Positions 12,201 through 57,200 of a DNA stretch of 64,000 nt are shown piece after piece. A program made the position numbers. Positions within the stretch are counted from its first letter, which is position 1. Every line of letters starts with the position of its first letter. The stretch lies in the NCBI RefSeq assembly GCF_011386835.1, contig NC_088791.1, positions 8,804,001-8,868,000 of the forward strand, read 5' to 3'. The DNA comes from Chrysemys picta bellii. Lineage: Eukaryota.

Positions 12201-15200
12201 ATAATTTAAATCAGAAATCCAGACACTACAACGTCCTCTACATGGGGCAACATATTAATACCATTTGGAAACTTACGCTAGTGCAGAATGTGGTTACTTG
12301 CTTATTAAGTGCTGCTTCAAATACATTAAACAGGTGCTACAAGTGCTACTCTGGCGGTAAGTTTTACAGTTCCATACAAGCGCCTTGGGTTTAATTATGC
12401 ACTTGATAAAAATTAAAATAAAATAAATATATGAAATAAATTAAGAAGTTTCTTAAATGATAGGATATCACTTAGATTGGGTAAGCAAATATTTAGAGAA
12501 TTCATAGAATCACAGGACTGGATGGGACGTCGAGAGGTTATCTAGTCTAGTCCCCTGCACTCAAGGCAGGACTAAGTAGTATCGAGACCAGTGGTGGGCA
12601 ACCTGCGGCCTGTCAGGGTAATCCACTGGCGGGCTGCAAGACAGTTTGTTTACATTGACCGTCCGCAGGCACGACCGCCCGCAGCTGCCAGTGGCCGTGG
12701 TTCGCTGTTCCTGGCCAATGGGAGCTGTGGGAAGCGGCAGCCAGCACGTCCCTGCGGCACGTTGACTGTTACTTATCTTCTAGGTGTTTGCAAATTGATT
12801 ACTTAATTACTTGCTTCATTATCTTTCCAGGTACTGGAGTTAAGCTGACTGGTCCGTATTTCCCCGGGTTGTCCTTATTTCCCTTTTTATAGGTAGGCAC
12901 TATATTTGCCTTTTTCCAGTCCTCTGGAGTCTCTCCCGTCTTTCATGACTTTTCAAAGATAAGGAGTATTTGTGGCACCTTAGAGACTAACAAATTTATT
13001 AGAGCATAATATATAATATATGCTCTAATAAATTTGTTAGTCTCTAAGGTGCCACAAGTACTCCTGTTCTTCTTTTTGCGGATACAGACTAACACGGCTG
13101 CTACTCTGAAACTTTTCAAAGATAATCACTAATGGCTCAGACATCTCCTCAGTCAGTTCCTTGAGTATTCTAGGATGTATTTCATTAGCCAATGGTGTCT
13201 TGAAGACACCTAACTTGTCTCAGTAATTTTTAACTTGTTCTTTCCCTATTTTAGCCTCTAAACTACCTCATTTTCACTGCCATTCACTATGTTAGAAGTC
13301 CAATTGCTACTAACCTTTTTGGTGAAAAACAAACAAAAAAAGTCATTTAGCACTTCTGCCATTTCTACATTTTCTGTTATTGCATTTCCCCCCTCATTGA
13401 GTAACGGACCTACCCTGTCCTTGGTATTCCTCTTGCTTCTAATGTATTTGTAGAATGTTTTCTTGTTACCCATAATGTCTCTAGCTAGTTTAACCTCGTT
13501 TCGTGCCTTGGCCTTTTTATTTTTGTCCCTACATACTTGTGTTATTTGGTTAAATTCATCCTTTGTAATTTGACCTAGTTTCCACTTTTTGTAGGACTCT
13601 TTTTTGAGTTTCAGATCATTGAAGATTTCCTGGGTAAGCCAGGGTGATCTCTTGCCATACTTTCTATCTTTCTTACGCAGTGGGATAGTTTGCTCTTGGG
13701 CCCTTAATAATGTTTCTTTGAAAAACTGCCAACTCTCTTAACTGTTTTTCCCCTTAGACTTGCTTCCCACGGGATCTTACCTACCAACTTTGTGAGTTTG
13801 TTAAAGTCTGCATTCTTGAAATCCATTATCTTTATTGTGCTGTTTTTCTTCCTACCATTCTTTAGAATCATGAACTCTACTATTTCATGATCACTTTCAC
13901 CTAAGCTGCCCTCCACTTTCAAATTCTCAACCAGTTCCTCCCTATTTGTCAAAATCAAACCTAGAACAGCTATCTCCTAGCACCTTCTGAAATACAAAAT
14001 TGTCTCCAATACATTCCTGTTGGATAATGTGTAGCCTGCTGTATTATTTTCCCAACAGCTATCTGGGTAGTTGAAGTCCCTCATCACCACCAAGTCCTGT
14101 GCTTTGGATGATTTTGTTATTAGATATTATTAGAAATAAGATGGACACATTGGTAATCTCTCTGAATCATAAATTCAAATCCAGGTGGGGCTGGAATTGG
14201 CCAAAAGTTATTAGCATGTGACACACATTTGGTGGCCTAAATAAAATGAGATGGTGGTGTAACCTACGTAGCTAATCAAGTATCTCTAGACATTTCATTA
14301 ACTGGCAGTCTCATGACAAGAGTCAGGACTGAACAGACAATAGAGACTGACCTCTAGACTCATTCCCACTTCTGTCCCCTTTTGGTCAAGTTTGAAGCAC
14401 ATTAGTGGGATGGTTTGAAGAAGATGAGACTACTGTTATGATGGCATGGGGATGGTGGGAGGGGCGGGGGAGGGAGTGGGATGTTCCTACACTGGGGATA
14501 AAGAAAATAATTCAGCCTGATGGCATGCCATGCCAGTATGTCCACATAAATCCTTATGAACTTGTCAACTCAATCCGTTCTCCCATCTATGTTTTACTGA
14601 ATATGCATGTGAACTTTTTTTTTTAAAATAAAACAAATCAATTGTAACATTTTGCCTTAAACTAGCAATAGCATTTAGACCACGCTGTGGTCACATGATC
14701 TGTCTCAATGCAGAGCGTAAACGCTTCCAGAAGAGATAGCAGTACGTTGAGGGAGCAAGAATCAGTGTAAAGAAGCACTCAAGTGAATAGGAAAATTCTC
14801 CATTGAGAGGGAATTTTGTCTAGTGGTTCAAACAGAAGACTGGGAACCGGACTCCTGGGTTCTATTTAAAGCTCTGCCACTGCCCAAAATGTGACCTTGA
14901 ACTTATTTCAACTGCTTGGTGTCTTAGTTCTCCCATCTGCAAAAATGGTTGTCACCTGCCACACAGGGTGTAACTATCTGTAAAGCACTTTGATATTCTT
15001 GAGTCACAGTGTCAGCGTAAAATATTATTAGAATTTATTGATTAGAATCACAGGTGCTTCCTCAAAGGTTACGTTCACCCTCGAAACCAAGAAATTCAAT
15101 TGATCAGCCACAATTGTAGCCTAATAGATTTTGATTACTGCTGCAAGTGGACCTTAAAGAAGACTAATCTGTTTACTCTAATAATAAAGAAATCCACTTT

Positions 15201-54200: not shown

Positions 54201-57200
54201 ATACTCTATAAAGAAGCAATTTAAAAATAGAGAAGACATCCTGAGAATGTTTCCTTCTCATTACAGCCCAGTGATAAGAGACCCAGCTACATGTGATGTG
54301 CTGCTTTGGCACAGTTCAAAGGGTGTCAGATCCACACTTGTGCGAGATAAGTGGAGCTTCAGTCAAATTAAGCCTATACCTGTTCAAAGGCAGCTGCAGC
54401 GTTCATGCTGGGGTGATGCTGCCTTCCCTCAAAAGTTACATGAAAGTCACTGTGCTGGTCACAGCAACCCTCCCAAAACGGAGAGGGAGGGGGAAAAAAA
54501 CCCAACTACCATTGTTTCCTGCTTAAACCATTAACAGTTCAATGATTCTGCTCCAGGACTTCCAGGAGCTGTAGTGTTCCAAATGAGGACCATTTGGGGT
54601 ACTGTAATGCTACCCAATCCTAGCAACCAGATCTCCAGTGCTTCTCCTAACTAAGGCACAGAAAAAATGGTTTCATGCATATCGTGATCAGATTTAAGCC
54701 ATTTAATTATGATTGAAGAAACAGATCCTATGTGCTTTGTTTTTTAAAAAAAGATGCGTAAGGTGCCCGGATACTACATAGATTCTTTAGGCAGGTTCGA
54801 CAGGAACCTCAGATACCTAGATTAAACGTAAATCCTTGTTGCCTTTTGTCGGATCCAGTATGCAGTGTAGTTGTAGTCATATCAGTCCCAGGATATTGGA
54901 GAGACAAGGTGGGTGAGGTAATATCTTTTATTGGACCAACTTCTTTTGGTGAGGACTGATAGGTCAGAGTCAGACATCCTCAAATGAGACATCCTACGAC
55001 GTGTGGGTGAATGCTTTTCACAAAACAATCACTCTATGTCAGTCTTCAAACTCACAGAAAAGATGAGCCTGGGAGCTTAAATTCATAATTCCTGATGGAA
55101 AAGACAGTGGATTTATGGCTTATTATAACACCCTCTTTTTGTCCTATAACTGCAGAGGTGTTAACTGGCCACTCTACTTTGAATGGTCCCTTACAATATG
55201 TGCTAACTACTTATGCTAAACAATCCGCTCCATCTTGCATTTAGCTGTGACACTCCAGCTATGTCTTTTAGGCACCTTTTAGCGACACAGCTGTGCTGTT
55301 AAAAGGTGCACAGTGTAGACACTCTTTGTCGGTGGGAGAGAGCTCTCCCACTGACAAAATAAATCCACCCCCAACGAGAGGCGGTAGCTTTGTCGGCGGG
55401 AGAGCTCTCCCACAGACAAAGCACTGTCCACACTGGCGCTTTTCGTTGGTAAAACTTTTGTTGTTCGGGGGGGGGGGGGCAGGGGGTTTCACATCCCTGA
55501 ATGACAAAAGTTTTACCGCCAAAAGTGCAGCGTAGACAAAGCCTCAGACAAAACCTTTTTAAGACCTGAAGAAGAGCTCTGTGTGGCTCAAAAGCTTGTC
55601 TCTTCCACTAGCAGAAGTTGGTCTAATAAAAGATATTAGCTCATCCACCTTGCCTGATGCAGTATGAATTCCTACCAAAATCCCCCAAGTCTACACGGAG
55701 CAGCATTTGCATGGACAGAGAGGGATACAGTTCCCCTAGCTGGCATTCATTTGGCAGATTGGGTTCATTCTCCATAGAAGCACTGTATAGAACATGTTTT
55801 AAGTGACAGAGGAATAGATTGTCAGCTAGTGGGTTAGAGCAATGGGAACTGGGATCTAAGATTCCTGGGTTTTACTCCGGGCTCTGACACTGACCCATAG
55901 TGTAACCCTGAGCAAATCATTTACCCACTCCGTGCCTCAGTTTCCCTATTTGTAAAATACCAACATTTACTTACCTAAGCGTATTGTGTGGATTAATATT
56001 TGTGAGATTGTTGTATGAAACTCAAAGGGCCTGATCTTGAACAACCCAGGCACTAAGTGTTGTGCAAATTGAGAATTGAGTAGCACAGATGGTACAGGGG
56101 AACCAGATCCTGCATTCATGAAACACGGCTGTGTGATTGTCAAGTAACTCCTGCCTACCAGCAGGAGAGAGACCTAAGAGGGAAGCAGACAGCTGAGTGC
56201 CTCACTAACACGAGGAGGATTGCACTTGTGGCCATGTCTCTTCAGACACATACACTGTCCACACATGCCCCACTCCATCACCTGTATTGCATGTAGTCTG
56301 CCCTGGTGATGGAGTGCGAATACCACAAGTGACTTGCAAAGCACAGTGCAAGAACTTTCAGAATCAAGATCTATACAAGTACAGTACTATGTTTCTAAGA
56401 AAGCAATACTGACATGATATGTAGTGGATTCACCACCAGTTCCTATTCCCATCAGTGAGAACTGTGGCTAGTAACTGTGGATGGACATCACTGATCTCTT
56501 AATTCTATTTATAAAATGTTGAATCAGTGGGCTACGAACTTCCCCCTTTTATTTTTAAAATGAAATCCAGGCACAGCTGCATCCCAGAGAGGATAAAAAG
56601 CTATTCCTTGCGTACAGTATACAGCACTGATTTCTGCAGCACTTCTGTGCTGTAAATTGTGCTGATGAGATTTCTCACATAAATCTTACCATTTGCTAAA
56701 ATAAAACCCCAAATGGGCAGTAAGAAAAGACACAGTCTGCTGATCAGTCTCCAAAAACAAATCTGTTTGGGGCTGCTTCTTCAGTTATGTATTTAGTTGG
56801 TTTCTTTCTTTTTTCTTAAAAAAGGCTGTACATTTGAGCCATTGGGAAACGAAAGAAAAGAGGTGAAAGTCAGCGCTATTGAGTAAGCCATTAAAAACCT
56901 CATTTTTATAGACAGGGACATTAAAAACTTTGTATTTAAGCTTTTCGCCTGTACAATGAAAATAGCAACTAGATATAAATTTCATGGTCTCTAAAAAGCA
57001 AAACCCTGTAGCCTACGAAAACAAAATTATCTTTGTAATGCAACTTTGGAATGGAAATTTAAACTCCAAAGGTAATTTTCCATTGAGAGTGCTCACTGAT
57101 GCATGAATTATACTCGCAGGGATGTGTAAATAGGATTTGTTTGATTGCTTCATCATCCCTCCATTATATCAAATCTTCTAAAGCGGTAGGAGACATCATA

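What the first reader, a model, noticed from the sequence alone, without database searches (positions are those of the whole stretch)
12948..55666. Recurring fold-back rule across PLE insertions of several ages and subfamilies
At 12963, 20959, 46182, 54863 and probably 7031 the layout is target, inverted copy of the 3' region, main copy, target. The inverted arm always lacks the extreme 3' tail (46, 30, 41, about 40 and about 35 nt), and TSDs are 11-15 bp where visible. Sequence is duplicated, unlike L1 twin priming, which inverts without duplicating. Inverted pLTRs are known in Penelope elements, but the narrow offset suggests a defined second-strand or template-switch step, for example copying back along the new cDNA to near the priming site. 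The mechanism is inference.
[Added by the scan's program, not by the reader: the finding's places include an assembly gap (unread letters, written N; its length is only estimated) at 39314 to 39453. Whether the letters on both sides are continuous or in frame is not known: test that first.]
Basis: partly seen in the sequence, partly recalled or inferred. Interest (0 to 1): 0.66.

Follow-up and report, generated by a model that had tools for sequence, protein, structure and literature searches.

The report
Known Penelope-element inverted arms with one-sided tail
The repeated [quoted passage not shown] layout is real, but it is the long-described signature of how Penelope-like jumping genes insert, here seen in a turtle genome, so it is ordinary rather than new.

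Summary
The layout exists at all five places. The window holds 7 Penelope-like element (PLE) insertion units from two families. Five are head-to-head inverted pairs, and in each exactly one outer end carries an extra 30-48 nt. Exact target duplications of 15, 13 and 12 bp flank three composites; the two old family-B units show only 7-bp candidates. The young unit at 20959-24104 has 953-nt arms that are 100% identical and encodes RT plus a C-terminal GIY-YIG endonuclease, with a 100% protein match to painted turtle.

This is the published PLE hallmark: an inverted 5'-truncated copy plus a 30-40 bp "tail" at only one end (PMC8557442, PMC3846280). A 2024 in vitro study (PMC11167929) shows both target strands being cleaved and extended, and two RT start sites that bracket the tail.

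- At 54858-55655 the tail-less arm reaches endonuclease coding sequence that the ~90-nt tail-bearing arm lacks.
- Two inner junctions appear to carry filler (12 nt read directly; about 9-11 nt inferred).
- Tail plus TSD length is not constant (61, 43, 53).

The assembly gap at 39314-39453 touches no PLE piece. Novelty: already known.

The parts
12948..12962 (.). Site 1, left copy of the target-site duplication (15 bp; first 2 nt ambiguous with the element end)
   Evidence: Exact 15-mer repeated at 13111-13125; read
12963..13007 (-). Site 1, tail-less inverted arm (45 nt, family A). Its inner end lies at the predicted hammerhead cut.
   Evidence: matches the other arm at 44 of 45 positions
13008..13019 (.). 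Site 1, 12-nt A/T-only filler at the head-to-head junction; not a palindrome
13020..13110 (+). Site 1, tail-bearing arm. The tail is 13065-13110 (46 nt, or 48 if the TSD is 13 bp).
   Evidence: (98.9% to the site-2 copy)
13111..13125 (.). Site 1, right copy of the TSD
20946..20958 (.). Site 2, left copy of the 13-bp TSD
20959..21911 (-). Site 2, tail-less inverted arm (953 nt). It encodes the GIY-YIG part on the minus strand.
   Evidence: 100% complementary to 23122-24074; Pfam GIY-YIG E 5.5e-6
21912..21922 (.). Site 2, probable junction filler (about 9-11 nt), containing a duplicated 8-mer
   Evidence: Protein homology to a 797-aa sea-turtle relative starts at the first residue of the frame opening at 21923. 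The boundary is inferred.
21923..24104 (+). Site 2, 5'-truncated main copy. Open frame 21923-23785 (620 aa, RT + GIY-YIG), then the 3' region with a hammerhead-like motif at 23985-24012 and a 30-nt tail at 24075-24104.
   Evidence: (RVT_1 E 2.7e-11, GIY-YIG E 1.4e-5)
24105..24117 (.). Site 2, right copy of the TSD
46170..46181 (.). Site 3, left copy of the 12-bp TSD
46182..46249 (-). Site 3, tail-less inverted arm (older family-A subfamily). Its inner end lies in the hammerhead helix II region, next to a 10-bp natural palindrome.
46250..46378 (+). Site 3, tail-bearing arm. The tail is 46338-46378 (41 nt).
   Evidence: arms match at 46/51 in the compared block
46379..46390 (.). Site 3, right copy of the TSD
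54858..54951 (-). Site 4 (family B), short tail-bearing arm (~90 nt). The tail is about 54863-54904.
54988..55655 (+). Site 4, tail-less arm, longer than its partner. It reaches endonuclease coding sequence and carries a nested unrelated 291-bp insert at 55262-55552.
   Evidence: Colinear with the site-5 arm; protein match E 1e-5 and E 0.03 to residues 560-576 of the site-2 ORF
7028..8273 (-). Site 5 (family B), tail-bearing arm. Tail about 7028-7066, endonuclease remnant 7628-7948, nested repeat about 7336-7660. The inner limit is uncertain.
8381..9376 (+). Site 5, tail-less arm. The frame 8381-8944 aligns to residues 418-524 of the site-2 ORF.
   Evidence: (E 6e-11)
34288..34425 (+). Single 5'-truncated family-A copy with a tail; no inverted arm and no TSD found
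17874..18225 (-). Single family-A copy with a tail; no inverted arm and no TSD found
39314..39453 (.). Assembly gap (140 N). It is not part of any PLE unit.
   Evidence: no PLE hit within 4.8 kb

Best explanation
These are ordinary insertion units of endonuclease-bearing Penelope-like retrotransposons (two families) in a turtle genome. They show the published PLE architecture: a head-to-head inverted 5'-truncated copy, a 30-48 nt 'tail' on only one outer end, and one target-site duplication around the whole unit.

Most likely mechanism:
1. The GIY-YIG endonuclease cuts both target strands with a stagger of 12-15 bp (family A).
2. Each 3' end primes reverse transcription of element RNA. One starts at the distal site, so the tail is included. 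The other starts in an internal zone 30-48 nt upstream, so there is no tail.
3. Each cDNA stops at its own point.
4. The two are joined head-to-head by a template jump or end joining, leaving filler or using a small palindrome.

Shown here: the layout, TSDs, offsets, arm lengths that are independent of each other, and junction filler. Shown in print for an Anolis element: cleavage and extension of both strands, and two start sites that bracket the tail. Inferred: which strand uses which start site, and how the cDNAs are joined.

The confidence of 0.8 is for the identity as the known PLE architecture together with dual-strand priming as the favoured route. Identity alone is about 0.93; the mechanism alone is about 0.55.
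For: Identity as a PLE:
- RT plus C-terminal GIY-YIG in one 620-aa frame.
- 2810 homologues with E <= 1e-3 among the 8000 candidates scored. The best is 100% identical to a Chrysemys picta bellii protein.
- Minimal hammerhead-like motif followed by GAAAGCTT or AAAAGCTT at the homologous place in 5 PLE arms. These are 5 of the 13 hits of a relaxed scan; the other 8 are scattered.

Single events:
- Exact 15-, 13- and 12-bp TSDs flank the composites. A match of 12 bp or more arose in 7 of 3000 random controls.
- Arms are 953/953 identical at site 2. At site 3 the arms are each other's closest relatives, 46/51 against 43/51 or less to other copies.

One-sided tail:
- In 5 of 5 inverted units exactly one end has the tail. 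Both single copies (2 of 2) have it.

Clustered internal ends:
- Profile positions 88, about 90 and 98 of about 129 in family A.
- Within about 10 columns in family B.

Arms are not copies of one another:
- At site 4 the tail-less arm reaches endonuclease coding sequence that the ~90-nt tail-bearing arm lacks.
- At site 2 the reverse holds: 953 nt against about 2180 nt.

Junctions:
- Inner junctions carry filler, 12 nt at site 1 and about 9-11 nt at site 2.
- All six outer junctions at sites 1-3 abut the TSD with no filler.

Literature:
- PMC8557442 (passages): an inverted 5'-truncated copy and a 30-40 bp tail, often at one end only.
- PMC3846280 (passages): a 31-bp tail on one of the inverted pLTRs, with the inverted pLTR 37 bp shorter and a 9-bp TSD.
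- PMC11167929 (main text read): the protein cleaves and extends both strands, and the tail equals the sequence between two RT start sites.
Against: - The in vitro study reports no difference in start-site use between top and bottom strands. Independent choice would give exactly one tail in at most half of insertions, yet 5 of 5 here have exactly one (binomial p <= 0.03, n small). The simple two-start-site model therefore does not by itself explain the strict asymmetry.
[quoted passage not shown] Here the target next to the tail-less arm resembles the element sequence downstream of the junction at 2 of 3 family-A sites, 5 of the first 7 positions each (read; profile overhang into the flank).
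- Site 4 is old, so a later deletion inside its short arm cannot be excluded.
- TSDs at sites 4 and 5 are weak.
- Only 7 units were available. No genome-wide count was possible.
Confidence: 0.8

Rival explanations
1. Fold-back or self-priming. After first-strand synthesis the cDNA 3' end snaps back on itself and copies the cDNA towards the priming site, stopping 30-48 nt short. Self-priming was also discussed for rotifer PLEs in PMC3846280.
For: - At site 1 both arms start at the same nucleotide, and at site 3 the junction sits at a natural 10-bp palindrome.
- At sites 1-3 the tail-less arm is never longer than the tail-bearing arm.
- PMC3846280 (passage) notes palindromes at inverted junctions and infers self-priming.
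Against: - At site 4 the tail-less arm holds endonuclease-coding and 3' sequence, more than 370 nt of element, that the ~90-nt tail-bearing arm lacks.
- The fillers at the junctions of sites 1 and 2 are not palindromes.
- At site 2 a snap-back would need a 1210-nt loop.
- Tail + TSD is not constant: 61, 43, 53.
- PMC3846280 itself notes that self-priming on a sense template would give tail-to-tail, not the observed head-to-head.
Confidence: 0.13
2. The arms are independent insertions that landed next to each other by chance, or by homing of one PLE into another.
For: For family B the two arms of a unit are not each other's closest relatives in a 50-column block. Site-5 arms match at 37/50, while the site-5 and site-4 tail arms match at 46/50. 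TSDs at sites 4 and 5 are only 7-bp candidates.
Against: - Exact 12-15 bp TSDs flank the composites at sites 1-3, and there is none around single arms.
- Arms are 100% identical at site 2.
- 5 of 7 units share the same head-to-head layout, with 0-12 nt between arms at sites 1-3.
- In an old burst, arms of one event are expected to be no more alike than any two copies, so the family-B identity figures do not discriminate.
Confidence: 0.04
3. The perfect 953-nt inverted repeat at 20959-24074 is an assembly artefact.
For: 100% identity of long inverted repeats can arise from mis-joined reads. PMC8557442 (passage) notes that such PLE structures cause assembly problems.
Against: - A perfect 13-bp TSD flanks the unit.
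- The open frame is intact.
- The tail asymmetry matches the four other, diverged units, whose arms differ from each other and cannot be artefacts.
Confidence: 0.03

Closest known systems
Canonical EN+ Penelope-like element insertion architecture (inverted 5'-truncated copy plus one-sided 30-40 bp 'tail'), as described for Penelope/Poseidon/Neptune/Naiad elements and Pen2a_Av of Adineta vaga (PMC8557442, PMC3846280)
   Same: - Head-to-head inverted 5'-truncated copy.
- An extension present on only one outer end (30-48 nt here; 30-40 and 31 bp in print).
- One TSD around the unit.
- RT + GIY-YIG frame.
- Hammerhead-like motif in the terminal region.
   Different: - Two tails here (46-48 and 41 nt) are slightly longer than the quoted 30-40 bp.
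- TSDs of 12-15 bp exceed the 8-10 bp quoted for the rotifer.
- No direct pLTR (partial tandem) is seen, because every copy in the window is 5'-truncated.
PAc (Poseidon of Anolis carolinensis) in vitro system (PMC11167929)
   Same: - The tail is bracketed by two initiation zones.
- Targets are AT-rich.
- The distal ends here lie 88-93 alignment columns after the predicted hammerhead cut. This is close to 85-92 nt in PAc, computed from the paper's +26 and +111-118.
- A conserved AC-rich segment lies in the tail.
   Different: - Nothing was assayed here.
- The genomic units show a strict one-tail-per-unit pattern, which the paper's strand-indifferent start sites do not predict.
- The predicted stem here (9 invariant pairs) has no covariation support, and its fold energies are not unusual.
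L1 twin priming
   Same: Both give an inverted 5' segment joined to a direct 3' segment within one TSD, through use of the second nicked strand as primer.
   Different: Twin priming primes internally on the same RNA, so the 3' end is not duplicated and a poly(A) end is present (established knowledge, recalled). Here the 3' region is present twice and there is no poly(A).

Membership tests
EN+ Penelope-like elements (canonical, C-terminal GIY-YIG) | Single ORF with a reverse transcriptase domain | tested here: met
   RVT_1 E 2.7e-11 in the 620-aa frame 21923-23785
EN+ Penelope-like elements (canonical, C-terminal GIY-YIG) | GIY-YIG endonuclease C-terminal to the RT | tested here: met
   GIY-YIG at residues 518-567 of the same frame, E 1.4e-5. 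Also in the inverted arm, E 5.5e-6.
EN+ Penelope-like elements (canonical, C-terminal GIY-YIG) | Pseudo-LTRs formed by partial tandem copies | tested here: not met
   No direct terminal repeat is seen around any unit. All copies are 5'-truncated, so the feature could not have been retained. This does not argue against membership.
EN+ Penelope-like elements (canonical, C-terminal GIY-YIG) | Inverted 5'-truncated copy adjacent to the unit and a 30-40 bp tail at one end only | tested here: met
   5 of 7 units; tails of 30-48 nt
EN+ Penelope-like elements (canonical, C-terminal GIY-YIG) | Minimal hammerhead ribozyme motif in the terminal repeat (PMC4209133) | tested here: inconclusive
   - Core, a 5-7 bp helix II and a palindromic GC after GAAA are present in 5 arms, each with one core mismatch.
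- The young copies read CCGA where CTGA is expected.
- Rfam gave 0 hits at the gathering threshold over the window and 0 hits at E <= 10 on 34200-34460.
- No cleavage assay was done.
EN+ Penelope-like elements (canonical, C-terminal GIY-YIG) | RT groups with telomerase/PLE RTs in a phylogeny; assignment to the Poseidon, Neptune or another clade | not tested
   No named PLE reference sequences were at hand. The homologues are unnamed or 'uncharacterized'.
L1-type twin priming | Inversion without duplication of the 3' end; poly(A) at the 3' junction | tested here: not met
   The 3' region is present in both arms and there is no poly(A)
cDNA fold-back (hairpin) copies | The second arm contains only sequence present in the first arm | tested here: not met
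   At site 4 the tail-less arm extends into endonuclease coding sequence that the tail-bearing arm lacks. Sites 1-3 are compatible.

The most novel reading that the evidence does not exclude
The genomic record may hold two things that the in vitro work does not show.

(1) A strict asymmetry. Every inverted unit has exactly one tail (5 of 5) and every single copy has one (2 of 2). This suggests that the two priming events of one integration are coupled, for example by an asymmetric protein dimer in which one half starts at the distal site and the other at the internal zone, rather than chosen independently.

(2) At 12963-13110 both arms begin at the nucleotide right after the predicted hammerhead cut (GAAAGCTT|), with filler between them. 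This would be a run-off signature of ribozyme-cleaved RNA serving as template in vivo. The 2024 study found no RNA-seq reads beginning or ending at the presumptive cut site, and in vitro unprocessed RNA was the dominant substrate for insertion.
Probability: 0.2. Interest if true: 0.45.

Novelty: already known. Interest (0 to 1): 0.15.

Why it matters
As it stands, this is a clean set of textbook PLE insertion units in a turtle. It is useful for repeat annotation, because boundaries, tails and inverted arms are easily mis-called. It is also a reminder that PLE frames contaminate turtle gene models.

It would matter more if a genome-wide census confirmed two things: a strict one-tail-per-unit rule, and pile-ups of arm 5' ends at the hammerhead cut. 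Those would constrain the still unresolved second half of PLE integration, and would give in vivo evidence for ribozyme processing.

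Tried and rejected
- **Rfam.** 0 hits at the gathering threshold on the whole window and 0 hits at E <= 10 on 34200-34460. The minimal PLE hammerheads are not caught by these models, so the motif rests on my own relaxed scan. 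That scan also gave 8 scattered hits outside the homologous PLE position.
- **RNA structure of the 3' region.** RNAalifold predicts 18 pairs, including 9 invariant ones that put the tail on the 3' strand of a stem. None of the 18 has a compensatory change. Single-sequence fold z-scores are -0.63 to +0.14. This is not evidence for structure.
- **'Tail + TSD is constrained'.** The sums are 61, 43 and 53, so not constant. With n = 3 it cannot be settled.
- **Nearest-relative test of arms.** Informative for sites 2 and 3 only. It is uninformative for site 1, because filler columns fall in the block, and for family B.
- **Hammerhead-cut run-off at the short arm of site 4.** This depends on a gapped alignment and was left as ambiguous.
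- **TSDs for the two single copies.** None found.
- **Microhomology between target and element at the internal start.** 5 of 7 positions at two sites and 2 of 7 at the third. This is suggestive only, given the AT-rich composition.
- **Literature checked for extra mechanism or turtle-specific description.** PMC5718144 and bioRxiv 10.64898/2026.07.22.740005 (passages only) add nothing on tails. The search 'Penelope / retroelement / turtle / hammerhead' returned only PMC4209133, which mentions similar motifs in turtle.
- **Genome-wide census.** Not possible.
- **Supplements.** Those of PMC11167929 (Fig. S1-S2, genomic end pile-ups) could not be seen.
- **Repbase/Dfam.** Not available, so the family names of the two elements were not determined.

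Full report
**What the window is.** It is 64 kb at about 43% G+C, with one 140-N gap at 39314-39453. [quoted passage not shown] Its best database match is 100% identical to an 'uncharacterized protein' of Chrysemys picta bellii. Next come sea-turtle proteins at 88-89%, then other turtles. In all, 2810 hits had E <= 1e-3 among the 8000 candidates scored. The window is therefore turtle DNA, most likely painted turtle or a close relative, and not human. The frame is that of an endonuclease-bearing Penelope-like element (PLE).

**The gap.** Its flanks match no PLE sequence. The nearest PLE pieces end at 34425 and begin at 46170. Whether the two sides are continuous cannot be told from the window. 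It does not affect any of the five places in the finding. I did not try to fill it.

**Inventory.** I ran self-BLAST, BLAST of the two best copies against the window, tblastn with the ORF and two nhmmer profiles of the terminal ~130 nt. Together they find 12 terminal arms:
- Eight of family A (E 1e-42 to 2e-11).
- Four of family B (E 4e-36 to 6e-16).
- Nothing else reached significance; the remaining 8 hits had E >= 0.61.

These arms form 7 insertion units. Two are single 5'-truncated copies (34288-34425 on +, 17874-18225 on -).

**The five units.**

| Site | Tail-less arm | Junction | Tail-bearing arm | Arm identity | Tail | TSD |
|---|---|---|---|---|---|---|
| 1 | 12963-13007 (-) | 12-nt A/T filler, 13008-13019 | 13020-13110 (+) | 44/45 | 46 nt (48 if TSD is 13 bp) | 15 bp exact |
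| 2 | 20959-21911 (-), 953 nt | about 9-11 nt unaligned, 21912-~21922 | ~21923-24104 (+) | 953/953 | 30 nt | 13 bp exact |
| 3 | 46182-46249 (-) | natural 10-bp palindrome | 46250-46378 (+) | 46/51 in compared block | 41 nt | 12 bp exact |
| 4 | 54988-55655 (+) | 54952-54987, unassigned | 54858-54951 (-) | 43/50 in compared block | about 39-42 nt | 7-bp candidate |
| 5 | 8381-9376 (+) | about 8273-8400 | 7028-~8273 (-) | 75-85% over the BLAST blocks | about 32-39 nt | 7-bp candidate |

Sources: site 1; site 2; site 3; site 4; site 5.

- In 3000 random position pairs, a flanking match of 12 bp or more arose 7 times and 7 bp or more arose 40 times.
- The site-4 candidate TSD overlaps sequence that is homologous to the element end.
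- The site-5 candidate TSD was read by eye. The scan's tolerance missed it and returned only 5 bp.

'11-15 bp' holds at three of the five units.

**Single events or neighbours?** At sites 1-3 one exact TSD encloses the pair, and neither arm has its own. The site-2 arms are identical. The site-3 arms are each other's closest relatives, 46/51 against 43/51 or less to any other copy. For family B the same test does not discriminate. Site-5 arms match at 37/50 and site-4 arms at 43/50, while the two tail arms of different sites match at 46/50. That is what an old burst would give either way. Sites 4 and 5 therefore remain 'probable'.

**Where the ends fall.** In family A the tail-less arms end at profile positions 88, about 90 and 98 of about 129. 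The tail-bearing ends fall at 127-129 or a few bases beyond. The internal ends lie in or next to a pyrimidine-rich stretch. In family B the two internal ends lie within about 10 alignment columns. So the ends occupy two short zones, not two fixed nucleotides.

**Comparison with print.**
- Craig et al. 2021 (PMC8557442, passages and Fig. 2 legend) state that PLE insertions are often preceded by an inverted 5'-truncated copy. They also state that a 30-40 bp 'tail' is often present at only one end.
- Arkhipova et al. 2013 (PMC3846280, passages) describe a rotifer element with an inverted pLTR, a 'characteristic 31-bp tail' on one of the inverted pLTRs, an inverted pLTR 37 bp shorter, and a 9-bp TSD. 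They discuss self-priming.
- A curation guide (PMC8969392, passage) lists inverted pLTRs and short 3' extensions as known peculiarities.
- The 2024 in vitro study of an Anolis element (PMC11167929, main text read) reports several things. The protein cleaves and extends both target strands. Reverse transcription starts at two internal sites. [quoted passage not shown] The protein is predicted to be a dimer.

**Mechanism.** Three observations here bear on the choice between priming on both strands and fold-back copying.
- First, at site 4 the tail-less arm is colinear with the site-5 arm back into the endonuclease coding region (protein match E 1e-5; E 0.03 to residues 560-576 of the site-2 ORF). 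The tail-bearing arm is only ~90 nt, so the tail-less arm cannot have been copied from it. At site 2 the relation is the opposite (953 against about 2180 nt). Arm lengths are therefore independent.
- Second, the inner junctions carry filler that is not a palindrome, at site 1 and probably at site 2. All six outer junctions of sites 1-3 abut the TSD directly. This is what two priming junctions outside and one joining event inside would give.
- Third, the internal ends cluster in element coordinates.

I therefore favour target-primed reverse transcription from both 3' ends of a staggered break, starting at two alternative zones, followed by head-to-head joining. I give the fold-back model about 0.13. 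The caveat is that site 4 is old, and an internal deletion in its short arm cannot be ruled out.

**What the simple model leaves open.** The in vitro work saw no strand difference in start-site use. Here exactly one tail is present in 5 of 5 pairs, and the tail is present in 2 of 2 single copies. Under independent choice, 'exactly one' has a probability of at most 0.5 per unit, so p <= 0.03. That is weak given n = 5. Print already says 'often only at one end'.

At 2 of 3 family-A sites the target next to the tail-less arm also resembles the element sequence just downstream of the start, at 5 of 7 positions (the profile alignment runs 7 nt into the flank at site 3). This hints at some annealing to the pyrimidine-rich tract. 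Given the AT-rich composition, it is only suggestive.

**Hammerhead motif.** A relaxed scan for a minimal hammerhead gave 13 hits. It looked for the core with at most one mismatch, a helix II of 4 bp or more, and GAAA. Five hits sit at the homologous place of PLE arms and are followed by GCTT. This fits the 'min-HHR' of PLEs described in PMC4209133 (parts 1-2 of 4 read), which also mentions turtle.

Rfam finds nothing. The two youngest copies read CCGA instead of CTGA in the core.

At site 1 both arms begin exactly after the predicted cut. This could be a run-off on ribozyme-cleaved RNA, or a coincidence noticed after the fact.

The distal ends lie 88-93 columns after that cut. This is close to the 85-92 nt that follow from the Anolis paper's figures. 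A predicted stem of 9 invariant pairs places the tail on its 3' strand, but there is no covariation and fold energies are ordinary.

**Verdict.** The phenomenon is already known, and the specific fold-back proposal is not favoured by this window. The supplements of the 2024 paper, which may already show the distribution, could not be seen.

Noticed in passing
window 23985-24012, 21021-21048 (-), 34307-34334: The hammerhead-like core of the youngest PLE copies reads CCGA where the conserved core has CTGA (position 4). An older copy (46259) and a family-B arm (55566) keep CTGA, as does the helix II-deleted single copy read at 17874-18225. The apparently recent subfamily may carry an impaired or variant ribozyme.
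   Followed up: partly
window 12963-13110: Both arms of this short unit begin at the nucleotide after the predicted hammerhead cut (after GAAAGCTT), separated by a 12-nt A/T filler. This may be a run-off signature of ribozyme-cleaved template RNA.
   Followed up: partly
window 36251-37021: G+C-rich minisatellite with a 39-bp unit, 19.5 copies, 85% matches and a higher-order period of 157. It produces the local G+C peak of 0.57.
   Followed up: no
window 58196-59620 (-): A 474-aa open frame with a strong RVT_1 match (E 5.2e-35). It is unrelated to the PLEs and is probably a LINE remnant (CR1-like by recall, not tested).
   Followed up: no
window 7336-7609, 31811-32104, 50097-50319, 57807-58104: Four copies of an unrelated ~270-bp repeat with internal inverted segments (72-83% identity). 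One is nested inside the left arm of the site-5 PLE.
   Followed up: no
window 55262-55552 and 44980-45196 (-): Another unrelated repeat (74% identity). One copy is nested in the tail-less arm of the site-4 PLE, and it contains short palindromic segments and a G-run.
   Followed up: no
window 29843-29935: A 93-bp near-palindrome (82% self-complementary) with no similarity to the PLEs; MITE-like.
   Followed up: no
homologue list: Many turtle gene models named after host genes contain this PLE frame. Examples are zinc finger protein 480-like, endothelin-3 isoform X1, dnaJ homolog B13 and TANGO2 homolog in Caretta caretta and others. This points to PLE-derived contamination or exonisation in the annotations.
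   Followed up: no
window 13258-13737 (-): A 159-aa open frame with a sub-threshold PARP_reg match (E 7.4e-4, 20.1 bits against a cutoff of 26.8), lying just right of site 1. It may be a host exon remnant or chance.
   Followed up: no
window 8088-8273 (-): A short minus-strand frame next to the site-5 junction contains a KGLN-type motif. By recall this resembles the N-terminal region of PLE proteins. If real, the tail-bearing arm has a large internal deletion of the RT. Not tested.
   Followed up: no
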